From a virus (taxonomy: Duplodnaviria > Caudoviricetes), in the IMG/VR virus record IMGVR_UViG_2724679705_000002, positions 2,069 through 66,068 of that record: a stretch of 64,000 bases of DNA. One strand, 5' to 3'. Position numbers and translations under genes: made by a program. Below the pieces are notes generated by a model that did no database searches, was not told the origin of the DNA, and saw only the letters and a program-made list of their open reading frames with translations. Below are positions 35,999 to 45,752 of the stretch, piece by piece. Position 1 is the stretch's first letter. Every line of letters begins with the position of its first letter.

Positions 35999-36060
35999 CG
36001 GCTGCTCCGTTCGCCTCGCGCCCCTCTGCCGGGGGCGGTTTCAGCGAAGCAGAGCGTGAG

Positions 36061-36111
36061 GACCGGAAGACAGGCGGAAGGTGGAACTGGCCGCTATCTC
36101 CCAATTCCACC
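36061..36111. promoter_or_regulatory. Regulatory repeat copy 1 (upstream of xis)
   Basis: 27/29 identical to 38569-38597; contains GGTGGAACTGG-N10-CCAATTCCACC inverted repeat. Confidence 0.65.
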
Positions 36112-36599
36112 CCTTGTTTTATTGGACTTTCAGCGGATAGCGCGCGACGCGACAGGCGTTGCCGCAGCCTTCGCAGGGCATTCCAAGCGCCGCTTCCTGG
36201 CGACGATCCGCGCTTCGTCGACACCGCTCCGACAGCTTGGGGCTGATTGGGCGGCGCTGAGGCGGTTTCGCCGGTTTCGCAGGGACCGGAATTGCCGGAA
36301 TGGACCATTCCGGTCGGGTTCCGACGGTTCTGGATGATATCCACAAGTTCTTTCTTTGTTCCGGTGCGCCAGTGCAGGATTCTGGTTGATCGTTCGCCTT
36401 CAGGATGCGTAGATTCGTGGTTGAGCAGAACATAAGAATCGACAAGGCAACCGAAGCCAGGTGCCGCCCCTCTTGGGGTGGGGTGCCCAATTACAGGCAG
36501 TTTTCCTCGACGACGTGGGCTGCAGCCAGTCCACCCGCGTGCTTGGCACGGCGGGTTTTTGTAACCCGCAGTCCGACGGCCCTGGCCGAAGGATGCCGT

Positions 36600-37223
36600 A
36601 TGTCTGAGAGGAGTTCGTTCATGCCTTTGCCGCCCGTCGCCTTCTATTCCATCTACGAAATTGCCGTGCGCTGGGGCTGTCCCCCGGCCGATGTCGCGGG
36701 CTGGGCGGCAGAGGGCCAGCTGAAGGTCGTCGCAGGCATTCCGCCCGTCAGATGTGGGGATGAAGTCGTGGGGGGCTTGGTCGAGGTGCCCATCGCGGAA
36801 CTGATGTGCATGTTCAGGCGGTTCGGGCCGAGCGACGATATCGGCCGATTGAGGCGCGTTCTCAAACCCGGCAGCGCGACCTGGGCGCACGTGACCGAAC
36901 CTTCGGATGGTCTGCCGATCCGCTCGTCAGACCTGCTGGTGGCGTCGGGGTCGTTGCTGCAATTCGAGGAAGAACGCGACCTATTGCGCCGCCCGGCCTC
37001 CACCATCGGCGCCAGTCCGCGGTACGATTGGGATTCCATGTACGCGTGGCTGACCGTTTTCCTGTTCGAAAAGGGGGTGCCCGACACCCAGACCGCGCTG
37101 GTTGCGCTGGTGCAGGACTGGTTCGTCCAGAATTCGAAGTCGGGGGAAGTGCCGGATGAAAGCACCATCCGCAAGCGGCTGACCTCCCTCTGGCGCAAGC
37201 TGCGTGGCGAGGAAACGGTGTGA
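36600..37223 (+). CDS. Hypothetical DNA-binding protein (putative regulator)
   Basis: N-terminal YSIYEIAVRWGC HTH-like segment and C-terminal VPDESTIRKRL wHTH-like segment; divergent from xis, convergent with int. Confidence 0.7.
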   Translation: MSERSSFMPLPPVAFYSIYEIAVRWGCPPADVAGWAAEGQLKVVAGIPPVRCGDEVVGGLVEVPIAELMCMFRRFGPSDDIGRLRRVLKPGSATWAHVTEPSDGLPIRSSDLLVASGSLLQFEEERDLLRRPASTIGASPRYDWDSMYAWLTVFLFEKGVPDTQTALVALVQDWFVQNSKSGEVPDESTIRKRLTSLWRKLRGEETV

Positions 37224-37226
37224 AGG

Positions 37227-38498
37227 TCAGGCCGATTTCGGCAAGTCGGTTCCGTCCTGCGCTGCGTCATGCACAAGGCGGGGCCGCGGGCGCAGGAGAC
37301 TGGCCACCGTATCGACGCCTGCGCGCAAGGGGGAATCCATCAGGTGCGCATAACGCTGGGTGGTCTGCATCTGGCTGTGGCCCAAGAGCTTGCCGATCAT
37401 TTCCAGCGATGCGCCGCCGCTGACAAGCAGGGAGGCGAAGGTGTGGCGCAGGTCGTGGATGCGGACGTCGGCCAGCCCGGCGTCCTTCTGTGCCTTGGCC
37501 CAGAAACGGCGGATTTCACGCACCGGCTGGCCAACCGTCTCGCCGGGGAAGAGCCACGGATTGCCGCTCGGCACCGCCCGCAGGCGCAGGCGCACGATGG
37601 CTGCGACGTCCTGCGAGATCGGCACACGGTGGATCTTGCGCTGCTTGGTGGTCGAGGCGGGTTTCGACCAGATGGCATAGTCGAGGTTGAACTGTTCGAA
37701 CCGCGCGGTCCTGACCTCGCCCACCCGCGCGCCGGTCAACATGCACATGCGGATGATCGCCGCGGCGCGCTGATCCTCGGCTGTATCCAGCACGACCGCC
37801 AGCCGGGTCAGTTCTTCGGGCGACAGGAACCGTTCGCGGGCATGTTCAATGCGCCGATGGAACCCCTGCGCGGGGTTGTCCGTCCGCCATTCCCATTCCA
37901 CCGCCAGCGTGAACATCTTGCGCAGCACCTCGCCCATGCGGTTGGCCCGGATTGGGGTTGGCTTGTGACCCTGCAGCTTTCGGGCGCGGTTGTTGGGCTT
38001 TGCCTTGCAGGGGCGGGGGCGGCCCTCTGCCACGAAATCGAGGAACTTCGCGACGTCGGACTTGGTGATCTCCGTCACCAGCCGGTTGCCCCAGGCCGGT
38101 TCGACCATCTTCTTCAGCATCGAGAGCTGGTCGCCTGCATTGGTCTTGGCCAGTTTTGGCAGGTGTTCAGCGATGTAACGGTCGATCATGTCGGTGATGC
38201 GCGGGGCCCCGCGCCACTCGTCGCGCGCCGCCAGAGGATCCTGCCCTTCGTCGATGGCGCGGCGCAGTTCCTTGGCGCGTTCGCGCGCGGCCGTGACACT
38301 CCATTCCGGCCAGCGCCCGATGGTCATCCGCCGCTGCCGCCCTGCGTGCCGGTAGTCGATGGTGAACGTGCGCGCGCCCGAGGCCTGAACCCGGGCGGCG
38401 AAGCCGATCACTTCCGTGTCGAAGATCTGATAGCTGACGCCGGGCTTGGGTTCCGCCTCGCGCAGGGTTTTTTCATTGAGTTTCAGTCTCTTGACCAT
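37227..38498 (-). CDS. int: Tyrosine integrase with N-terminal arm-binding domain (P4-like)
   Basis: TGARVGE, HDLRH, LLGH and TQRYAH catalytic motifs; RRMTIGRWPEWSV arm domain. Confidence 0.95.
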   Translation of the reverse strand: MVKRLKLNEKTLREAEPKPGVSYQIFDTEVIGFAARVQASGARTFTIDYRHAGRQRRMTIGRWPEWSVTAARERAKELRRAIDEGQDPLAARDEWRGAPRITDMIDRYIAEHLPKLAKTNAGDQLSMLKKMVEPAWGNRLVTEITKSDVAKFLDFVAEGRPRPCKAKPNNRARKLQGHKPTPIRANRMGEVLRKMFTLAVEWEWRTDNPAQGFHRRIEHARERFLSPEELTRLAVVLDTAEDQRAAAIIRMCMLTGARVGEVRTARFEQFNLDYAIWSKPASTTKQRKIHRVPISQDVAAIVRLRLRAVPSGNPWLFPGETVGQPVREIRRFWAKAQKDAGLADVRIHDLRHTFASLLVSGGASLEMIGKLLGHSQMQTTQRYAHLMDSPLRAGVDTVASLLRPRPRLVHDAAQDGTDLPKSA

Positions 38499-38568
38499 GC
38501 ATCCCGCCTCCTTGCCCGACGACACAGGCGTAGACCCGCGCCACTATCAAGTCGGACCACGGGGCCGG

Positions 38569-38616
38569 GACCGGAATACAGGCGGAAGGTGGAATTGAAC
38601 GCTGGCGGCCAATTCC
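38569..38616. promoter_or_regulatory. Regulatory repeat copy 2 (upstream of int)
   Basis: GACCGGAATACAGGCGGAAGGTGGAATTG...CCAATTCC with the same internal spacing as copy 1. Confidence 0.65.
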
Positions 38617-38806
38617 GGACAATGAAAACAGGGAGTTGGCCGTGCAAGCCCAGCGCGCCGGGTGGCCTGAGATGGGGAATCTTACTGGCATTTGCATCGA
38701 CCGTTTGATCGAACCCCGCGCATGGGGTAGGCGAACTCGCGGCCTTCGAGCCCAGCGATTAAGTGATACCGCCAGCGGACCGCATAATGACGGAGTAGGA
38801 TACAAA

Positions 38807-39403
38807 ATGCTTCAACCGACCGAGGCCCCCGGCCAGCTATTCGTGATCGTCATCGACGAGACATATGGAGGGGACGAGGACACTTGGGAATTCGAGAGCG
38901 AACGGTATCGGCGTGATTTGGAGCGGGCGTTTGGAACAACTTTCCAAGAGGCGAACGTTGGGCCCGGCGCCGACATCCCAGCCTTTCTCACTGATCTGAT
39001 CAACGCCAGAGTCCCACTCTGGAGCGCCGCGTTGGTTGTGTTCTTCGCGGGCAAGTCCATTAAGGATAGCTTCGAGGCTTGGATTGAGATGGCCCGCGCC
39101 GTCCGAAGCTTCTTCGATCGCCCTGTGATTTTGGCACGGCACGGCGCAGCGGTCCTCGCCATCGAAGCGGCGCTTGCCGAGATGAATGGTATCCCAAAAA
39201 CAATCCGACTGGTTCGCTACCGGGCCGGGCATCTGGCTGAGGATACGTCGCTCCTTGATGCAAACCTAGGCAACGGAATTGAAGACAGTCCACCTACCCT
39301 GAACCTTGGGTACGTGGTGCATCTCTTCGAGATGGAGGTCGACGGCGTGCTTCTCCGCGTGAGCGTCGACGGCAGGCGGGCTACGGTCGCGCGGGTTTCC
39401 TGA
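38807..39403 (+). CDS. Hypothetical protein (cargo between int and att)
   Basis: AGGA RBS before ATG 38807; 198 aa with one hydrophobic segment. Confidence 0.7.
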   Translation: MLQPTEAPGQLFVIVIDETYGGDEDTWEFESERYRRDLERAFGTTFQEANVGPGADIPAFLTDLINARVPLWSAALVVFFAGKSIKDSFEAWIEMARAVRSFFDRPVILARHGAAVLAIEAALAEMNGIPKTIRLVRYRAGHLAEDTSLLDANLGNGIEDSPPTLNLGYVVHLFEMEVDGVLLRVSVDGRRATVARVS

Positions 39404-39442
39404 GCTTTGGTCAGGCCGCCCCGGGTCACCTAAGCATGCTCG

Positions 39443-40384
39443 TCAGTCCATCCAGCCCTCGATGACGCCCTTCAGCTGAATGATGCGATCCTGCACCAAT
39501 GCGGATCTCTCTCCAGCCCAAACGAGCGGATACATAGAGCCACCCTCAACCTGCGAAGCGATCAGGGCGGCATGCTGGTCGGCAAAGTCGGACCAAGCCG
39601 CGTGAGCATCGCGAAGCATGGAGGCGTCCATGCCAGGAAGAGCCGCAACCCGTTCCAATAGCGCGTTCAGTTCCTCCTCCTCGCCGCGCAGTTTGTCGCC
39701 AGCGGCGACATTCATCGCAGTCTGCGTTCGAGGTACTGAGCCATGGAGAACCTCGACAACGGCCCAATCCACCCCGTCGACGAACGTTCGGGCGGCATCA
39801 ATGAAGGCTGTAAGGTCTGAAAGGTCGAATACGGGATCAGCGGGTAGTTCATGTGTTAGGACGTGGCGAACTTCGAAAAGGCGTGAGAGAGCCACCATCA
39901 TCGCATTGTAGTTGGTGACGATGGGAGGAAGTGGCCAATCGTCCGACTCCTCTGACCAGCGCGGATGCGCCGCTTTGAGTTTGTGCGCGAAGCCGGGGAT
40001 CAAGGTGTCCAAGATGGCCAAGATCCCATCAATCCCGTTTAGGGAAACGGAGTGAGCGATGAAGTCGCCGATCGTCAGCTCGCGCCGATTCACGTGTGCG
40101 GCGAAGGTCAGATCGATCTTCGCGCCTTTGACGAGTTTTTCCGCGCGTTGGAAGGTGGCTTCGTCGCCATCGACCAGCTCGGCGATCACCTCACGGAGGA
40201 AGACTTCAAGGATCGTCACCAATCGGATCGGCACGAACTGAAGGTGCATAGGCGCCAATCCCGCAATGGTACTGACCTCGGCTCTAAGCGCATCGATTTG
40301 TGCAGCGAGTTCCTGTCCGAGGCGACGATGTTCCCCGCGTCGGGCGTTCCATTCGATGATCTGCTGATAGGGCGAGCGGTGCAT
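39443..40384 (-). CDS. HEPN-like domain fused to LprI/DUF1311-like domain
   Basis: R-x4-H motif RHVLTH (39868-39851); C-terminal PRTQTAMN...LRDAHAAWSDF...GGSMYPL...L..DRI LprI pattern; no signal peptide. Confidence 0.7.
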   Translation of the reverse strand: MHRSPYQQIIEWNARRGEHRRLGQELAAQIDALRAEVSTIAGLAPMHLQFVPIRLVTILEVFLREVIAELVDGDEATFQRAEKLVKGAKIDLTFAAHVNRRELTIGDFIAHSVSLNGIDGILAILDTLIPGFAHKLKAAHPRWSEESDDWPLPPIVTNYNAMMVALSRLFEVRHVLTHELPADPVFDLSDLTAFIDAARTFVDGVDWAVVEVLHGSVPRTQTAMNVAAGDKLRGEEEELNALLERVAALPGMDASMLRDAHAAWSDFADQHAALIASQVEGGSMYPLVWAGERSALVQDRIIQLKGVIEGWMD

Positions 40385-40513
40385 TGTTTCTGCGACATAC
40401 TTTCTGATCTAATGGCTGATACTTGTCACTCGTTGCGGCAGGCTTCAAGGACGGTTGGCTATTCGCGCCGCTGACGGACATGGTGCTTGGTTGGCCGCAC
40501 GTTAGCATAAATG

Positions 40514-40536
40514 GATTATCACCATTGGTGATTATC
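40514..40536. promoter_or_regulatory. Imperfect palindromic operator (core ATCACCA-T-TGGTGAT)
   Basis: Inverted repeat ending just upstream of the -35 box, in the divergent spacer. Confidence 0.55.
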
Positions 40537-40539
40537 TAT

Positions 40540-40568
40540 TTGACTGCATGCGTCGAATCGTTCATGAT
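40540..40568 (+). promoter_or_regulatory. Sigma70-type promoter of the retron operon
   Basis: TTGACT-N17-CATGAT. Confidence 0.55.
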
Positions 40569-40574
40569 GGCGTG

Positions 40575-40790
40575 GTGAAGATTGTTCATCCGAGGAGCAG
40601 AACCCGTCTTGAGTTGGGGCCGTGAGCCCTGTGGAGGCCGATGGTCTCCGTCTCAATCCCGTAGCTGGCAGGGACCGCGGACGAGCGCCGCACCCGCTGG
40701 GCACGGGTGCGGCATGTTCGAGGTAAAACGTCGCTGAACTGACCTTCTTCCCGATGGGCACCGGCACTTTCGCCGGTGGGTAAGAAGGAG
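40575..40790 (+). ncRNA. Putative retron msr-msd RNA plus RBS-masking hairpin
   Basis: TTGAG/CTCAA stem (40609/40656) enclosing two hairpins; perfect 10-bp stem GCCGCACCCG/CGGGTGCGGC (40687-40713); CCTTCTT/AAGAAGG stem (40743-40788). Boundaries approximate. Confidence 0.65.
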
Positions 40791-40799
40791 ACTTTCAGG

Positions 40800-40940
40800 A
40801 TGGACAGGAAAAATCGTCACCAGCGGCGGCGCCGCCGGTCTGGCAGGAACCAAGGGTGGCTCTGGCGAGTCGTCGTTCTGCTGGGCCAGGCAACATACTA
40901 CGTTGTTCGTTTTTGGTTCTGGTTTTCGGACCGAGAGTGA
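40800..40940 (+). CDS. 46-aa small protein (not in ORF track), candidate retron effector toxin
   Basis: AAGGAG-N9-ATG; MDRKNRHQRRRRRSGRNQGWLWRVVVLLGQATYYVVRFWFWFSDRE*. Confidence 0.65.
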   Translation: MDRKNRHQRRRRRSGRNQGWLWRVVVLLGQATYYVVRFWFWFSDRE

Positions 40941-40975
40941 GCGGCGACCTCGAAAATAGCCGATTGGAGGGAACG

Positions 40976-41302
40976 ATGTCTGATGTGAAGCGACCGATGA
41001 TCAACGACGCCCTTCGCCTGATCCGCCTATACCATGGGTTTTCGCAAGCAGAACTTGCCGAAGAGATTGGACTGTCGCAATCAATGATCTCGGAGATCGA
41101 GCGCAATGCCAAGCCAGTCTCGATCGAGGTTCTTGAGCGATACAGCCAAAAGCTCGGGGTGCGGATGTCGCAGCTCATGTTCTTTGCCGAGGAGTTGGAA
41201 GGCGAGCCCGTGCAGAAGCGCGGTAAGCTGATCGTCGCGAACCGCGTGTTGAAGCTCCTAGAGTCCTTTTCCCCTAGGGAGCCTGCTGGTGCGGCACAGT
41301 AG
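40976..41302 (+). CDS. XRE/Cro-C1 HTH protein
   Basis: LRLIRLYHGFSQAELAEEIGLSQSMISEIERN; GGAGG RBS. Confidence 0.92.
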   Translation: MSDVKRPMINDALRLIRLYHGFSQAELAEEIGLSQSMISEIERNAKPVSIEVLERYSQKLGVRMSQLMFFAEELEGEPVQKRGKLIVANRVLKLLESFSPREPAGAAQ

Positions 41303-42320
41303 GAAGCCGCACCCGTACGAGATTTATGGTCTCGAGAGGTCTCCGTTTGCCCAGCGCCCTACCCAACGGGAGGTCGCCGATCTTCTGGGCGAAACCAAAG
41401 CTGACCTTATCCGCTTGGCCAATTACAAAGACCAGTTCATCGTGCGCCGCCGGGAAAACATAGGCGGCAAGGATCGGGATCTCGCATATCCGGTGTCGCG
41501 GCTTCGTGGCGTGCATGAACGCCTCAAGTTCCATCTCAACAAGGTCCAACAGCCCAGCTATCTCTTTAGCCCGCGTAAGAAGCGGAGCCAGCGGGACAAC
41601 GCGGCACTGCATCTCGACCAGGATCAGTACCTGACGATGGACGTAAAGCAATTTTATCCGTCAACGACGGAGGAAATGGTGTATCGCTGGTTTGTAGACG
41701 AACTCGGGCTGTTCGAGGATGTTGCCGGTCTGCTCACTCGTCTGAGTACCATTGATGGCAAGGCATCCTTCGGCTCGCCGCTCACACCTGTGCTCTGCAC
41801 CCTTGTCCATCGTCCTTTGTTCGACCGCATCTCCGATATCTGCGGCCATCGAGGACTGCGCCATTCTCTTTGGGTCGACGACTTGACGATTTCTGGAAAA
41901 TTTGTGCCTGGACAGGTTGTTACGAGCATCCGGGAAGTTATTCGACAGCGCGGTCTACGCTCGCACAAAATCCGATATCGCACGGGTAACCGACCAGTCA
42001 TGATAACTGGGATCGGCGTCGTCGGCCGGGATCTTCTCGCGCCCAATTCGCTCAACCTCCGCATTAAGCAGTATTGGCAGGATCTGCATGATGCGATGAC
42101 GGCAGAGGAACGGGCCTCATGCGCCCAACGCCTCCTCAGCCAGCTCGGAACCGTCCGGCATATCGTCGGAACGAAGTCTAACGTGGGGCAGCGAGCGTCC
42201 GACCAGATGAACATGCTCAAGCAGAAGCGAGACAAATGGATAAGTGAGGCGAGCCAAGAAGCGTCGAAAAAGAGCGCCGATGAGGCCGCGCCGATGGAGC
42301 ATGAAGACATACCGTTCTGA
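41289..42320 (+). CDS. Retron-type reverse transcriptase
   Basis: Region X NAALH, DVKQFYPS, SFGSP, catalytic WVDD, region Y ITG; no maturase/endonuclease domain; overlaps the HTH stop. Confidence 0.88.
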   Translation: MRHSRKPHPYEIYGLERSPFAQRPTQREVADLLGETKADLIRLANYKDQFIVRRRENIGGKDRDLAYPVSRLRGVHERLKFHLNKVQQPSYLFSPRKKRSQRDNAALHLDQDQYLTMDVKQFYPSTTEEMVYRWFVDELGLFEDVAGLLTRLSTIDGKASFGSPLTPVLCTLVHRPLFDRISDICGHRGLRHSLWVDDLTISGKFVPGQVVTSIREVIRQRGLRSHKIRYRTGNRPVMITGIGVVGRDLLAPNSLNLRIKQYWQDLHDAMTAEERASCAQRLLSQLGTVRHIVGTKSNVGQRASDQMNMLKQKRDKWISEASQEASKKSADEAAPMEHEDIPF

Positions 42321-42622
42321 TCCGGGCGTGGGCTAAGGTTTTTTTGAGCGCGACTGTGTCAGTGCCATCCGGTCGAAGATTGCGTCGGCGGTTACCTGCA
42401 CCTAGCTGACTCTTAGGTAAGACGTGGCAAAAGGCGTTAACCTCTCCTCGCATCGAGTTCGGTGCCAGGTTTGTGGCCTTCGCTCGTCGGAAGGTAATCT
42501 GCTTGGCTTGTCAACGTCTGGTCAACCCTTGAATTCAGTTTCACCGCGTTCGCTTCCGTTGAAATGAGTTGATTTCCGCCGAGTGTCGGTCAGTACCTCA
42601 ACGAATTCAAAGGCATGCTGTG

Positions 42623-42635
42623 TAAGTGATTGATT
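42623..42635 (-). promoter_or_regulatory. IHF site next to att
   Basis: AATCAATCACTTA on the minus strand matches WATCAANNNNTTR. Confidence 0.6.
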
Positions 42636-42665
42636 TGATTCACTTTACAGGATCGGCGTGGTTGC

Positions 42666-42712
42666 GGCTCATAACCTGAAGGCCGCAGGTTCAAATCCTG
42701 CCCCCGCAACCA
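42666..42712 (+). other. 3' half of tRNA-fMet(CAT) = att site at the integrase-proximal end of prophage 1
   Basis: GGCTCATAACCTGAAGGCCGCAGGTTCAAATCCTGCCCCCGCAACCA; 5' half of the tRNA absent. Confidence 0.88.
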
Positions 42713-42740
42713 AAATTACCACGCGATAACGGTGACTTAC

Positions 42741-42765
42741 AAGCCGCCCCTCCGGGCGGCTTTTT
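42741..42765 (+). terminator. Rho-independent terminator (original tRNA terminator)
   Basis: AAGCCGCCC/GGGCGGCTT stem followed by T-run. Confidence 0.8.
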
Positions 42766-42806
42766 GCTGTGCAGATTTTAACTCAACACCAACTCAACAA
42801 AACCGG

Positions 42807-42853
42807 TGTAGCGTGACACGAATTTTTGCAGGGCGTGACACGAATATTTGCAG
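42807..42853. repeat. Mu-type right end: terminal TG plus two transposase-binding sites (R1/R2-like)
   Basis: TGTA then GCGTGACACGAATWTTTGCAG twice with 22-bp period (42811, 42833). Confidence 0.72.
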
Positions 42854-42948
42854 CATCTGAATTTTGTCCGAGACTTCCGCGTCCTGACGATTCCATGATC
42901 CCGACTGACAGCCGAGGCGCTGTCGATTCGTAGTAATCGGGGGTTCTC

Positions 42949-43470
42949 ATGGTTCTTAAAACAGGCTTTTCAGCAGCACTTGTAGCGGTTGCGTCAATCG
43001 GGTTTGGATCGGCTTCAAACGCGGCCATCCTGTGGACATTCGACGGGACAGTTGTCGATGCAGGCCTCTACTGCGCGTTTCCGGACCCAGACGAAGAATG
43101 TCAGCCCGACGAAATGCCGATATTCAATTACGCTCTCGGAGAGACGGGCGTCGCGACCGCGCGTATCCGGGCCGGGGTTGTCACTTTGAACTTCAACGGC
43201 TCCGAGCTTTTCAGTGGCGAGGTTGAGCGAATTGGAAACCGCTATAGCAGCTGGATAGATCGCAACCCCTTTGCAGTGCATCTCCTCGAATGGAACGATC
43301 GTTCGGGGTTTCTTTATTATGAGAACGACGACGTCCCGTAATTCGAGCGGTTTCAACTGCAGCTGGACAATGTCACCATGTCCCCGATCCCCCTCCCCGC
43401 CTCCGCAGCCCTTCTGCCCCTGGGCCTGGGCGCCCTCGCGCTGGTGCGAAGGCGCCGCCGTTCGGCTTAG
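42949..43470 (+). pseudogene. VPLPA-CTERM (PEP-CTERM-like) surface protein interrupted by in-frame TAA at 43339-43341
   Basis: Signal peptide; same frame continues FERFQLQLDNVTMSPIPLPASAALLPLGLGALALVRRRRRSA*. Confidence 0.8.
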
Positions 43471-45752
43471 ACCGCAAGCGGCTCCAGGCAGCCCCGCGAG
43501 GGGTTCGGGCCACGCAGGCGGCCCAGCAGATCGCGGGGCAACCTGGGCCATTGGTCCGCATCCTGATAGGCCCCGCTTCCGGGCGCAGGGCGGTAGAGCT
43601 GCACCATGCCGCCCGGCAGTCCGTTGACCGGGTTGTATTTCGGAAGGCTGGTCATCGGGACAGTGCGATGGTCGAACCCGAAATCCAGGCTGGTTCCCGC
43701 AGGCCAGGTCGCGCCGCTGGTGTTGGTGATCGTGATGGCGCTTGCACCGAACGACACCGCGATCTGGCTTGAAACCGCGGTGTAGATGGCCCCTGTGGAC
43801 GCGGCCTCCTCGCTCGCCGCGTCACTGCCGCCGAACCGGATCCAGTGGTCCCTGTGGCGGGACGGATCGGCGGTGAACATGGCCCGCGCATAGGACGCCG
43901 CTTGCCATCCCGCAGGCTGATTGAGGTCGGCATAGGGAATCGTGACCGTTCCCCCAGGGGCGACGGCCGCAGGCAGCCCGGCAGGCCATGTCCCGCGCGC
44001 CACGCCGATCTTGTAGCCGCGGTCGACGGGCGCCCAAAGCGCCTCCAGGTCGAACGGCCCGTCGCTGGTCAAACCATCCGCCCTGTTTGGGGTATGGACC
44101 ACGTTGTTGGCGAAGGTGGCCCGTTTGAAATACACGCCGCCGTCTGCGCCCCCGATCGGAACATAGGCCCCGCTGTAATGGGCGTCGGACACCAGATTGA
44201 CCACGGTGCAATGCAGGATCGCCACGGCGCTTTCGAGCGAATCCCGATCCAGATCGGGCACCCCTTTCATGCCGATGCTCGATCCGGGCAGCCAGGGGGC
44301 ATCGGACGCGATATCCGGCCGGATGACCAGGCAGTTTTCGAGCGCCACGCCCCCGTTGCTGTCATTTCCAAACACCCCTCCCTTCCGCGATGCGGGGACG
44401 ATGATGCTTTCCGACATCCGCCCGTTCAGGGCGCGCTGGGTCGAGGGCGCCCCGCCGATGGCATTGCCCCAGGCGACGCTGCCCTCGATATAGCTGCGGG
44501 ACACCAGAATCCGGCTGATGGTGTCGTTCTGGTGAATGCGCAGCACCGGCTGCGGGCTGGGCGGCAGGACGGCCCCGTTGCCCGACCATTGCCCTTTGCC
44601 ATGCCCGGAAAAGGATTCGACGATCATCAGGGCGTTTCGTTGGGATCGCAGCGCCGTGTGATCGTTGCGCATCCCGCGTTCGCCCAGGGATTTTCCGACG
44701 CCGTTCATCAGCGCATCCGCGCTGTGAATGCCCTCGCACCCGATAATCAGGAAATGGGACCGATTCCCCGCCGAGGCGTAATAGCCGAAGTTCTGGAAGT
44801 TCCTGGCGGAACAGTTCTGGGCCACGAGATAGGACGGCCGCGAGTCCGACGCGCTGTAGGTGTCGTATCCGTTCCCCACGCCGTCCGCCAGGCAGTTCCT
44901 GACCGCGAGCCAGCCCGTCACCCAGATCGAGAACGCGGCCGGCAGGGACGCGACGTTGCCCGCCGCGGTGCTTTCGATCGTGCTGTCCCAGGTGCTGCGC
45001 ACATCGAGGTTTTCCAGGAAGGTGTATTCGACACCCTTTCCCGCCTCGCCGACGACCCGCATGAACGCCACCGCCGATGGGGCGACATTGATGATCGCCC
45101 GTGCGGATCCCCCATAGGTGCCGACCGTGAAGCGCCCCATGTTCCAGGCGTTCTGGTTGGCCGCCTCGCTTTGCAAGCGAAAGCCCTCGCTTTCGAACGC
45201 CTCTCCCGCCCGGCACAGGATCCGGTGATTGCTGCCCGAGGTCATCGCATAATTCATCGCCGCGTCGAAGGACGCGAAGCGATGGTCCACGTTGTGCGCA
45301 GGCGCCCCGGTCCAGGTGCCGCTCGTGCTCACGATCAGGGGAATATACCCGGCGGGATAGGGATTGACCGTGAAGGTGATCGAGGCATAGGCGGTGCGCC
45401 CCCAGTAATCCGTGACCGCCACCAGGACCGTATGGGTGCCGGGATCATAGATCCGGCAGACGTGCTGATCCCGCGCCCTATTGGCGTCTCGATGCGCGGG
45501 CAGCAGGCGTTCCGGCACATCGAAGGTCGCGCCCGGCATCCCCATGTCCCATTCGCAATGCATCTCGCGAAACGCGGGATCGTAGGTGATGCCGGTGCGC
45601 TTCTTGGTGTGCGAAAAGTTCGCCGGGACCGCCTTGAGAATGATAGGTTCCGGCCCCCCATAGGCGAGATTTGCCGGATCGTGGGGGCGGGTGATCTCGA
45701 TGGCCACACTCGGGGCGGACAGGCGTTTGACGGCTGCGGTGATGCTGCCCAT
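43467..45752 (-). CDS. Large accessory protein: PKD-like N-terminal domain + probable right-handed beta-helix
   Basis: CEWDMG...YDPGTHTVLVAVTDYWG..ASITFTV (PKD-like); G/N/S-rich beta-helix-like repeats; 761 aa. Confidence 0.6.
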   Translation of the reverse strand: MGSITAAVKRLSAPSVAIEITRPHDPANLAYGGPEPIILKAVPANFSHTKKRTGITYDPAFREMHCEWDMGMPGATFDVPERLLPAHRDANRARDQHVCRIYDPGTHTVLVAVTDYWGRTAYASITFTVNPYPAGYIPLIVSTSGTWTGAPAHNVDHRFASFDAAMNYAMTSGSNHRILCRAGEAFESEGFRLQSEAANQNAWNMGRFTVGTYGGSARAIINVAPSAVAFMRVVGEAGKGVEYTFLENLDVRSTWDSTIESTAAGNVASLPAAFSIWVTGWLAVRNCLADGVGNGYDTYSASDSRPSYLVAQNCSARNFQNFGYYASAGNRSHFLIIGCEGIHSADALMNGVGKSLGERGMRNDHTALRSQRNALMIVESFSGHGKGQWSGNGAVLPPSPQPVLRIHQNDTISRILVSRSYIEGSVAWGNAIGGAPSTQRALNGRMSESIIVPASRKGGVFGNDSNGGVALENCLVIRPDIASDAPWLPGSSIGMKGVPDLDRDSLESAVAILHCTVVNLVSDAHYSGAYVPIGGADGGVYFKRATFANNVVHTPNRADGLTSDGPFDLEALWAPVDRGYKIGVARGTWPAGLPAAVAPGGTVTIPYADLNQPAGWQAASYARAMFTADPSRHRDHWIRFGGSDAASEEAASTGAIYTAVSSQIAVSFGASAITITNTSGATWPAGTSLDFGFDHRTVPMTSLPKYNPVNGLPGGMVQLYRPAPGSGAYQDADQWPRLPRDLLGRLRGPNPSRGCLEPLAV

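What the first reader, a model, noticed from the sequence alone, without database searches (positions are those of the whole stretch)
40743..40940. 46-aa Arg-rich/aromatic micro-protein whose Shine-Dalgarno is locked in a hairpin
Seen: CCTTCTT (40743-49) pairs with AAGAAGG (40782-88), which covers the SD AAGGAG, around an inner CACCGGC/GCCGGTG stem. The ORF has a poly-Arg N-terminus and a W/F/V-rich membrane-like C-terminus. As I recall, recent work on type VI Retron-Vpa2 reports a translationally repressed toxic small protein released upon RT-DNA synthesis. Inference: reverse transcription (plus RNase H) just upstream unmasks the RBS and releases a membrane toxin, an RT-triggered riboswitch.
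Basis: partly seen in the sequence, partly recalled or inferred. Interest (0 to 1): 0.82.

Follow-up and report, generated by a model that had tools for sequence, protein, structure and literature searches.

The report
Type VI retron toxin riboregulator
The hairpin and the 46-codon gene are real, conserved parts of a Type VI retron (a reverse-transcriptase anti-phage system). This is a new alphaproteobacterial example of a toxin-in-a-structured-RNA design described in two recent preprints, not a new kind of system.

Summary
Observation confirmed. The nested inverted repeats (40743-49/40782-88 and 40759-65/40772-78) are there and cover the Shine-Dalgarno (SD) AAGGAG at 40785-90, 9 nt before the ATG at 40800.

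The hairpin alone is only marginally better than chance (z -1.8). Comparison makes the case:
- The locus is a Type VI retron (PADLOC RT_VI 1e-59, HTH_VI 3e-31).
- All 26 alphaproteobacterial relatives with upstream DNA carry a 41-46 aa small-protein (SP) ORF in the same slot.
- In every one the SD pairs with an anti-SD strand about 50-60 nt upstream, and the two strands co-evolve (cognate -12.0 vs non-cognate -7.7 kcal/mol; 0/5000 permutations).

Three further conserved helices appeared: the RNA 5' end pairs with the start codon; a flanking repeat brackets the SP gene; and the poly-Arg codons themselves sit in a helix.

This matches the "hybrid RNA" described for Retron-Vpa2 and the RNA scaffold described for Retron-Sen3.

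RT-triggered unmasking is inferred by analogy only. The RNase H version does not fit the anatomy. Sen3 shows that a sequestered ribosome-binding site need not mean repression.

Verdict: new member of a known kind, moderate interest.

The parts
40516..40536 (.). Conserved palindrome (half-sites ATC-R-C, 5-nt spacer) just upstream of the promoter-like site. Candidate HTH operator, or the 'upstream stem-loop' reported for Sen3-type retrons.
   Evidence: Present in all 27 loci. At the one variable stem position the arms match in 20 loci (13 G-C, 7 A-T), with 4 A/C and 2 G/T mismatches. Listed as I2.
40540..40568 (+). Sigma-70-like promoter (-35 TTGACT, 17-nt spacer, -10 CATGAT). It predicts an RNA 5' end near 40573-40578.
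   Evidence: Consensus scan. The TTGAC and the spacing are conserved in groups A and B of alignment A2. The start site is inferred, not measured.
40573..40964 (+). Predicted hybrid RNA of about 390 nt: structured non-coding part, SP coding sequence and 3' repeat.
   Evidence: The block is alignable across 27 loci. In the named structure 96.4% of cells pair, against 35-54% when partners are slid. The extent is inferred by analogy to the Vpa2 hyRNA.
40573..40591 (+). 5' arm (a1-like). It pairs with the start codon and first codons of SP (40797-40822).
   Evidence: duplexfold covers the start codon in 26 of 26 loci. Listed as I4. Helices 1 and 2 pair in 94.6% and 92.9% of cells, two pairs with double changes. 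In L008 a GUG start is matched by CAC.
40616..40650 (+). Two short msr-like stem-loops (40616-30 and 40632-50).
   Evidence: RNAalifold. The second has 4 of 7 pairs with changes on both sides.
40687..40713 (+). Perfect 10-bp stem-loop. Best candidate for the reverse-transcription template (msd) hairpin. Its loop resembles the riboregulator's internal loop.
   Evidence: I8; 98.8% paired. The msd assignment is inferred. The loop resemblance is 13 of 15 positions in the window (D2) but is not significant across loci.
40717..40724 (+). IR1, the 5' arm of the long-range repeat that brackets the SP gene.
   Evidence: It pairs with 40947-54. Up to 10-11 of 26 sequences keep a given pair through changes on both sides. 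100% paired.
40729..40736 (+). 5' strand of the helix that closes the riboregulator arm. Its partner is 40821-28, inside the Gln-Arg-Arg codons of SP.
   Evidence: RNAalifold pairs 171-177 with 289-295, with C-G to U-A and U-A to G-C exchanges. 100% paired.
40739..40796 (+). The riboregulator hairpin of the finding: anti-SD strand 40743-49, three C-G pairs, conserved 5' internal loop about 40753-59, inner stem 40759-65/40772-78, and SD 40785-90 in the 3' strand.
   Evidence: Covariance model (CM) R1 scores 47-68 bits on all 27 loci and finds nothing in three more distant Type VI loci.
40800..40940 (+). SP: a 46-aa protein with a basic, disordered N-terminus and one long aromatic/hydrophobic helix. 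Presumed toxic effector.
   Evidence: The ORF is intact at the same position in 26 loci. 34 representative clusters among 1.84 billion proteins, nearly all 38-52 aa. AlphaFold2 gives a helix at 16-45, pLDDT 78. No Pfam or PADLOC family. Toxicity is inferred from Vpa2 and Sen3.
40943..40954 (+). 3' strands just after the SP stop codon. 40943-46 closes the coding arm by pairing with 40830-33. 40947-54 is IR2, pairing with IR1.
   Evidence: (I9).
40976..41302 (+). Cro/C1-type HTH protein, 108 aa.
   Evidence: PADLOC HTH_VI 2.8e-31; Pfam HTH_3 5e-13.
41289..42320 (+). Retron reverse transcriptase, 343 aa. Its start overlaps the end of the HTH gene.
   Evidence: PADLOC RT_VI 1.3e-59, next best RT_III-A 6e-33. 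The NAxxH, xVDD and xTG motif residues are invariant in A1. It is the only RT_VI in the 3.65-Mb genome.

Best explanation
The region 40573-40964 is the hybrid RNA of a Type VI retron whose genes run ncRNA, SP, HTH, RT. The 46-aa SP is the presumed toxic effector. Its translation start is held shut by two conserved RNA elements. The first is a local three-tier hairpin in which an anti-SD strand (40743-49) pairs with the SD. The second is a long-range helix in which the 5' end of the RNA (40573-91) pairs with the AUG and the first codons. A second set of helices is topologically incompatible with that 5'-end/AUG helix unless a pseudoknot forms: IR1/IR2, 40729-36 with the Gln-Arg-Arg codons, and 40830-33 with 40943-46. 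The RNA probably has two states. Most likely mechanism, by analogy with Retron-Vpa2: in uninfected cells SP translation is kept very low. When phage recombination or anti-RecBCD functions let the RT's single-stranded DNA product accumulate, that DNA or the changed RT-HTH-RNA complex opens the riboregulator, SP is made, and the cell stops growing. Shown here: retron type, conservation of SP, and conservation with covariation of the helices. Inferred: repression, RT or msDNA dependence, toxicity, and the trigger.
For: - Type: RT_VI 1.3e-59 and HTH_VI 2.8e-31.
- SP: an ORF of 41-46 codons at the same place in 26 of 26 readable relatives, spanning Rhodobacterales, Hyphomicrobiales (Rhizobium and allies), Sphingomonadales and Acetobacteraceae. 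Differences are biased to third codon positions (630 vs 446 and 410). The family is a small set of stand-alone micro-proteins.
- SD lock: the MFE partner of the SD lies 48-72 nt upstream of the AUG in all 27 loci, and 48-62 nt in 25 of them. Cognate anti-SD/SD duplexes average -12.0 kcal/mol against -7.7 for non-cognate pairs, 0 of 5000 permutations as low. On the CM-fitted alignment 8 of 10 outer-stem pairs and 6 of 7 inner-stem pairs show changes on both sides. There, 73 cells have double changes against 37 +/- 5 in shuffles, 0/500.
- AUG lock and whole architecture. 96.4% of cells pair against 35-54% when slid. 22 pairs have double changes against 11.3 +/- 1.7, 0/500.
- The layout matches the published Vpa2 hyRNA: three arms from a node, RBS and AUG in stem-loops, and a 3' end annealing back. 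SP is short with an aromatic C-terminus, as described for Vpa2 and unlike the 79-aa Sen3 SP.
Against: - No expression, toxicity or msDNA data exist for this locus or its clade.
- The single-sequence fold is only marginally better than shuffles.
- In this GC-rich RNA the predicted pairing probability of the SP SD (0.75) is not much above that of the HTH gene's SD (0.61). Thermodynamics alone does not single it out.
- Retron-Sen3 also has a sequestered RBS and yet makes SP constitutively.
- The 'direct repeat' that links msDNA to the riboregulator in the Vpa2 model is 13 of 15 positions in this window. Across loci it is no longer than with shuffled sequence.
- The SP profile does not detect the SPs of three more distant Type VI loci, and the riboregulator CM does not hit them. 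Homology to the Vpa2 elements is therefore unproven.
Confidence: 0.6

Rival explanations
1. Sen3-like control. SP is translated all the time, the HTH protein neutralises it after translation, and phage inhibition of RecBCD releases it. The hairpin and the other helices would then be a scaffold for the RT-HTH-RNA complex, or would merely tune the SP:HTH ratio. They would not be an on/off switch.
For: This was shown experimentally for another Type VI retron whose RBS is also predicted to be sequestered and whose SP gene is also bracketed by IR1/IR2. IR1/IR2 and RNA structure inside the SP coding region are conserved here too. The HTH gene is tightly conserved and sits directly after SP.
Against: The SP here is 46 aa with one predicted helix. 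It lacks the long amphipathic C-terminal extension that is proposed to contact HTH in Sen3. Both the SD and the AUG are paired by co-varying partners, which is more than a scaffold needs. In the Shinella relative (L009) the HTH frame carries an in-frame stop while SP is intact. That is hard to reconcile with an essential antitoxin, unless it is a sequencing error or the locus is decaying.
Confidence: 0.25
2. The hairpin is mainly a reverse-transcription element: the msd template stem, or an RT-recognition element. Its overlap with the SD would be secondary. In canonical retrons the template stem-loop sits directly 5' of the 3' arm of the basal a1/a2 helix, and this hairpin sits exactly there relative to the 5'-end/AUG helix.
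For: The geometry: the 5' arm (40573-91) pairs with 40797-40822, and the hairpin ends at 40796. The hairpin has a strongly conserved internal loop, with invariant positions at 40754 and 40756-58. That suggests recognition by a protein or a nucleic acid.
Against: Copying this stem and removing the template would destroy the SD of that RNA molecule. In Vpa2 the msDNA maps to a stem-loop in the first arm, upstream of the RBS arm. The anti-SD strand tracks SD variants such as AGAGG, GGAGA and GAGAGC, as expected if pairing with the SD itself is selected.
Confidence: 0.1
3. Chance hairpin beside a spurious ORF in GC-rich DNA.
For: The single-sequence z-score is only -1.8. The ORF has no Pfam or PADLOC family.
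Against: The ORF, its position, the hairpin and its compensatory changes recur in 26-27 loci from four bacterial orders.
Confidence: 0.02

Closest known systems
Retron-Vpa2 hybrid RNA and SP (Type VI retron, Vibrio parahaemolyticus; Zhang et al., bioRxiv 10.1101/2025.10.22.683967)
   Same: Gene order ncRNA-SP-HTH-RT. The SP coding sequence lies inside a structured RNA. The RBS and the start codon sit in stem-loops of a separate arm. The 3' end anneals back to the non-coding part. SP is short, with a hydrophobic/aromatic C-terminal helix.
   Different: The host clade is Alphaproteobacteria. The RNA is shorter (about 390 nt against about 470 nt), and SP is 46 aa against 55 aa, with a poly-Arg N-terminus. 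The nearest non-alphaproteobacterial RTs found on plasmids are at most 33% identical. SP and riboregulator homology to other Type VI lineages could not be shown. The 7-nt direct repeat is not convincingly conserved. There are no functional data.
Retron-Sen3 / cl2075 lineage (Garcia-Rodriguez et al., bioRxiv 10.64898/2026.04.27.721009)
   Same: IR1/IR2 bracket the SP gene. Covarying RNA structure lies inside the SP coding region. Two alternative folds of the RNA are proposed. A conserved palindrome or stem-loop lies upstream of the structured RNA.
   Different: The Sen3 SP is 79 aa with two or three helices, and HTH controls it after translation. Here SP is 46 aa with one predicted helix, and both SD and AUG have co-varying partners. 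That lineage is found in Beta- and Gammaproteobacteria.
hok/sok-type toxin mRNAs (type I toxin-antitoxin systems). This comparison rests on my own knowledge, not on a tool result.
   Same: It works in a similar way: a small hydrophobic toxin whose mRNA is kept untranslatable by pairing between its 5' end and a distant downstream segment, and by sequestration of the translation start.
   Different: No antisense RNA antitoxin is evident. Activation is presumed to go through reverse-transcribed DNA and an RT-HTH complex, not through 3' trimming of the mRNA. There is no sequence relation. It is not a member of that family.

Membership tests
Type VI retron (Mestre et al. 2020 scheme; PADLOC models) | RT belongs to the Type VI RT clade | tested here: met
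   RT_VI 1.3e-59 over 272 of 279 profile positions. The next model, RT_III-A, scores 6e-33.
Type VI retron (Mestre et al. 2020 scheme; PADLOC models) | Cro/C1-type HTH gene directly upstream of, or overlapping, the RT gene | tested here: met
   HTH_VI 2.8e-31. The HTH gene ends at 41302 and the RT gene starts at 41289.
Type VI retron (Mestre et al. 2020 scheme; PADLOC models) | Retron RT motifs (NAxxH, catalytic xxDD, xTG) | tested here: met
   N104, A105, H108, D197, D198, T240 and G241 are invariant in 16 RTs. The sequence is read.
Type VI retron (Mestre et al. 2020 scheme; PADLOC models) | RT-dependent single-stranded DNA and anti-phage defence | not testable with these tools
   Needs experiments.
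Vpa2-type hybrid RNA with translationally repressed SP | Small ORF between the structured RNA and the HTH gene | tested here: met
   Present in 26 of 26 readable loci.
Vpa2-type hybrid RNA with translationally repressed SP | RBS and start codon inside conserved stem-loops | tested here: met
Vpa2-type hybrid RNA with translationally repressed SP | Three arms from a central node, with the 3' end annealing to the non-coding part | tested here: met
   IR1/IR2 and the two arm-closing helices, all with compensatory changes.
Vpa2-type hybrid RNA with translationally repressed SP | Conserved 7-nt direct repeat in an msd loop and in the riboregulator loop | tested here: inconclusive
   In the window there is an exact 7-mer and 13 of 15 identity (40693-707 vs 40750-64). 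Across loci the longest shared word is 4-8 nt, against a mean of 5.6 with a shuffled stem-loop.
Vpa2-type hybrid RNA with translationally repressed SP | SP and RNA homologous to those of Vpa2 | not tested
   No Vpa2 sequence could be obtained through the tools. The SP profile and the CM do not detect three more distant Type VI loci.
Vpa2-type hybrid RNA with translationally repressed SP | One abundant transcript; msDNA-dependent derepression; SP toxicity | not testable with these tools
The rest needs experiments.
Sen3 / cl2075-type Type VI retron | SP of about 79 aa with an N-terminal extension and an amphipathic C-terminal helix | tested here: not met
   SP is 46 aa with a single helix at 16-45.
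Sen3 / cl2075-type Type VI retron | [quoted passage not shown] | tested here: inconclusive
   The palindrome at 40516-36 is conserved in 27 loci. It lies upstream of the predicted promoter and may be a DNA operator rather than an RNA stem.

The most novel reading that the evidence does not exclude
The RNA is a two-state switch in which both states are under selection. State 1 pairs the 5' end with the AUG and codons 1-8, forming a retron-like basal helix. State 2 pairs 40729-36 with the Gln-Arg-Arg codons and IR1 with IR2. The two cross each other, so they are alternatives unless they form a pseudoknot. The invariant Gln-Arg and the poly-Arg tract of the toxin would then be fixed as much by RNA pairing as by protein function (dual coding). 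Binding or extension by the RT, or its DNA product, would decide which state forms and so whether the toxin is made.
Probability: 0.3. Interest if true: 0.6.

Novelty: new member of a known kind. Interest (0 to 1): 0.4.

Why it matters
Type VI retrons were the last retron type without a mechanism. Two preprints now give conflicting pictures: translational release by msDNA in Vpa2, and post-translational control by HTH in Sen3. This alphaproteobacterial clade has 27 loci in hand and 34 SP clusters in public data. It gives an independent, well-diverged data set in which the SD lock, an AUG lock and the flanking repeat all show compensatory evolution. That supports the view that RNA-level control of the toxin is ancestral to the type. 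It also names specific base pairs to mutate. It does not reveal a new principle.

Tried and rejected
- Rfam scan of 38000-43500: only a sub-threshold twister-sister match on the minus strand (20 bits against a gathering score of 34, E 0.88). Taken as chance.
- tRNA scan of 36000-44000: none found.
- Terminator reading of the hairpin: rejected, because no U-tract follows it.
- Minus-strand ORFs over the region (66 and 127 aa): treated as GC-rich noise and not studied further.
- Plain RNAalifold on MAFFT alignments recovered the inner stem but not the SD stem, because the bulge positions differ between clades. Duplex tests and a CM-fitted alignment were used instead.
- The direct-repeat link to msDNA is not significant.
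- A possible pairing between the conserved 5' motif (about 40600-08) and the riboregulator loop gave mixed compensation by eye. It is left open.
- The SP profile against the SPs of Acinetobacter, Aeromonas and Azospirillum Type VI loci gave no significant match. CM R1 gave no hit there.
- The ESM Atlas search of SP gave nothing above chance level.
- The neighbouring LprI-domain gene and the 255-aa ORF are not found beside the other retrons, so they are not counted as parts of the system.

Full report
**Observation.**
- 40743-49 is the exact complement of 40782-88, and 40759-65 is the exact complement of 40772-78.
- AAGGAG lies at 40785-90, 9 nt before the ATG at 40800. The frame is open for 46 codons, to the stop at 40938-40.
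- The fold of 40735-40810 gives this hairpin at -25.8 kcal/mol. Three extra C-G pairs and a one-base bulge join the stems, and a 7-nt loop is left open on the 5' side.
- On its own this is marginal: z = -1.81, and 9 of 200 shuffles fold as well.

**What the locus is.**
- Downstream lie a 108-aa HTH protein (40976-41302) and a 343-aa reverse transcriptase (41289-42320) whose start overlaps the HTH stop.
- PADLOC assigns them to HTH_VI (2.8e-31) and RT_VI (1.3e-59; the next RT model scores 6e-33). Pfam sees only HTH_3 and a weak RVT_1 match.
- The retron RT motif residues are invariant among relatives.
- It is the only RT_VI in the 3.65-Mb genome.
- The operon sits between a tyrosine integrase (37227-38525) and a 3' fragment of a tRNA gene (about 42655-42712). 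It is therefore cargo of an integrated element.
- The two genes between the integrase and the retron are not found beside related retrons.

**Is the small ORF conserved?**
- The RT has hundreds of relatives. A scan of one genome per species returned 27 loci, from Rhodobacterales, Hyphomicrobiales, Sphingomonadales, Acetobacteraceae and Caulobacterales, with 48-92% RT identity.
- In all 26 loci where upstream DNA is available, an ORF of 41-46 codons lies between a conserved non-coding block and the HTH gene.
- The ORFs share a basic N-terminus with an invariant Gln-Arg. A hydrophobic/aromatic stretch follows, usually with Gly-Gln in the middle and a basic residue seven positions on either side.
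- Differences are biased to third codon positions.
- A profile of the family finds only 34 clusters among 1.84 billion representative proteins. Nearly all are 38-52 aa, and a few are longer through an upstream start call.
- The family has no Pfam or PADLOC model.

**The SD lock.**
- Folding the arm that contains the start site, sequence by sequence, gives the same design almost everywhere. From the bottom it has an anti-SD/SD stem, a 5-bp middle stem, a conserved 6-7-nt loop on the 5' side only, and an inner 7-bp stem.
- In full-length folds the MFE partner of the SD lies 48-72 nt upstream of the AUG in all 27 loci, and 48-62 nt in 25 of them.
- The SD variants of different clades are matched by their own anti-SD strands. 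Cognate duplexes average -12.0 kcal/mol against -7.7 for non-cognate pairs, and none of 5000 permutations reaches the observed value.
- A covariance model of the hairpin (R1) scores 47-68 bits on all 27 loci.
- On its alignment the inner stem pairs in 99% of cells, with 6 of 7 pairs changed on both sides. The outer stem shows double changes in 8 of 10 pairs.
- Overall 73 cells have double changes against 37 +/- 5 in shuffles (0/500). Sliding the partners drops pairing from 81% to 33-56%.
- The outer stem pairs in only 68% of cells in one fixed register, because the bulge positions differ between clades.
- One caution: the predicted pairing probability of the SP SD (0.75) is not far above that of the HTH SD (0.61) in this GC-rich RNA. 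The argument rests on covariation, not on energy.

- RNAalifold and a hand-named structure show four further conserved helices:
  - two short stem-loops (40616-50);
  - a perfect 10-bp stem-loop (40687-40713);
  - a long-range repeat, 40717-24 with 40947-54, that brackets the SP gene and has many compensatory exchanges;
  - a helix between 40729-36 and 40821-28, that is, the Gln-Arg-Arg codons, plus 40830-33 with 40943-46.
- The 5' end of the RNA (40573-91) pairs with the start codon and first codons (40797-40822). A duplex covering the start codon forms in 26 of 26 loci.
- Changes in codons 1-3 are mirrored in the 5' arm. In one Devosia locus (L008) a GUG start is matched by CAC.
- On 16 loci the full structure pairs in 96.4% of cells, against 35-54% when slid. 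It has 22 pairs with double changes against 11.3 +/- 1.7 in shuffles (0/500).
- The 5'-end/AUG helix crosses the helix at 40729-36/40821-28. The two sets are alternatives or a pseudoknot.
- A sigma-70-like promoter (40540-68) predicts a 5' end at about 40575. Upstream of it lies a palindrome conserved in all loci.

**Comparison with what is known.**
- Two preprints cover this ground.
- Zhang et al. (10.1101/2025.10.22.683967) report the following:
  - Retron-Vpa2 makes a hybrid RNA that holds both the template and the SP coding sequence.
  - The RBS and the AUG are in stem-loops of a second arm.
  - The 3' end anneals back.
  - SP is toxic and translationally repressed.
  - msDNA, even supplied in trans, derepresses it.
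- Garcia-Rodriguez et al. (10.64898/2026.04.27.721009) show for Retron-Sen3 an IR1/IR2 pair around SP and covarying structure inside the coding region. There, however, SP is made constitutively and is neutralised by HTH.
- The present locus has the anatomy of both. Its short SP, one helix with an aromatic end, resembles the description of the Vpa2 SP more than the 79-aa Sen3 SP.
- Sequence-level homology to other Type VI lineages could not be shown:
  - RTs outside this clade found on plasmids are at most 33% identical.
  - Three such loci carry 51-53-aa SPs of similar design.
  - Neither the SP profile nor the hairpin model detects them.

**Mechanism.**
- Most likely (0.6 for the whole statement) the hairpin and the 5'-arm helix keep SP translation low, and a phage-induced change in the RT product or complex opens them.
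- The link to reverse transcription is by analogy only.
- The Vpa2 model invokes a 7-nt repeat shared by an msd loop and the riboregulator loop. This window has such a repeat (40693-707 vs 40750-64, 13 of 15 positions). Across loci the shared word is no longer than with shuffled sequence.
The anti-SD strand lies within the same hairpin and 3' of the probable template, so degrading upstream template RNA would not free the SD.
- The rivals are Sen3-like post-translational control (0.25), the hairpin as a template or RT-recognition element (0.1), and chance (0.02).

**Verdict.** The feature is real, conserved and under structural selection. It is a new alphaproteobacterial member of a kind described in 2025-2026 preprints. 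Useful extras are a co-varying AUG lock and apparent dual coding of the poly-Arg tract. Function remains inferred.

**Tools unavailable.** Complex prediction, the look-up of sequencing runs and the look-up of encoding contigs could not be used.

Noticed in passing
window 40516-40536 and the same position in L001-L027: A palindrome (half-sites ATC-R-C, 5-nt spacer) lies just upstream of the -35-like TTGAC and is conserved in all 27 loci. Both A-T and G-C versions of the variable pair occur. It is a likely binding site for the retron's own HTH protein (autoregulation), or the same element as the 'upstream stem-loop essential for defence' reported for Sen3.
   Followed up: partly
window 40821-40833 (SP codons 8-12): The invariant Gln-Arg and the following Arg codons pair with 40729-36 and 40943-46. 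The poly-Arg N-terminus of the toxin may therefore be constrained by RNA structure as well as by protein function.
   Followed up: partly
L009:2161-2481 (Shinella sp.): The HTH gene has an in-frame stop after codon 37 while SP and RT look intact. This is either a sequencing error or a decaying locus. It bears on whether HTH is an essential antitoxin.
   Followed up: no
L026:1920-1945 (Paracoccus sp.): An extra small hairpin of about 20 nt is inserted between the anti-SD strand and the middle stem of the riboregulator. The SD is still paired in the MFE fold.
   Followed up: no
window 40600-40608 and 40753-40759: The conserved 5' motif (AACCCGUC-like) is complementary to the conserved internal loop of the riboregulator (4-6 bp). 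Some loci change in a compensating way and others do not. This is a possible tertiary contact.
   Followed up: partly
window 42655-42712: The 3' part of a tRNA gene (T-arm and acceptor end), which ARAGORN does not call as a whole tRNA. It is probably the attachment-site remnant of the integrase element (integrase at 37227-38525) that carries the retron as cargo.
   Followed up: partly
window 39443-40384 (minus strand): A 313-aa protein with a C-terminal LprI domain (Pfam 1e-10) is transcribed divergently from the retron promoter region. It is not present beside the related retrons, so it is probably separate cargo.
   Followed up: partly
L028, L029, L030 (Acinetobacter, Aeromonas and Azospirillum plasmids): More distant Type VI loci (25-31% RT identity) also have 51-53-aa ORFs in the same slot, with a basic N-terminus and a hydrophobic C-terminus. 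Only the Azospirillum ORF is annotated.
   Followed up: partly
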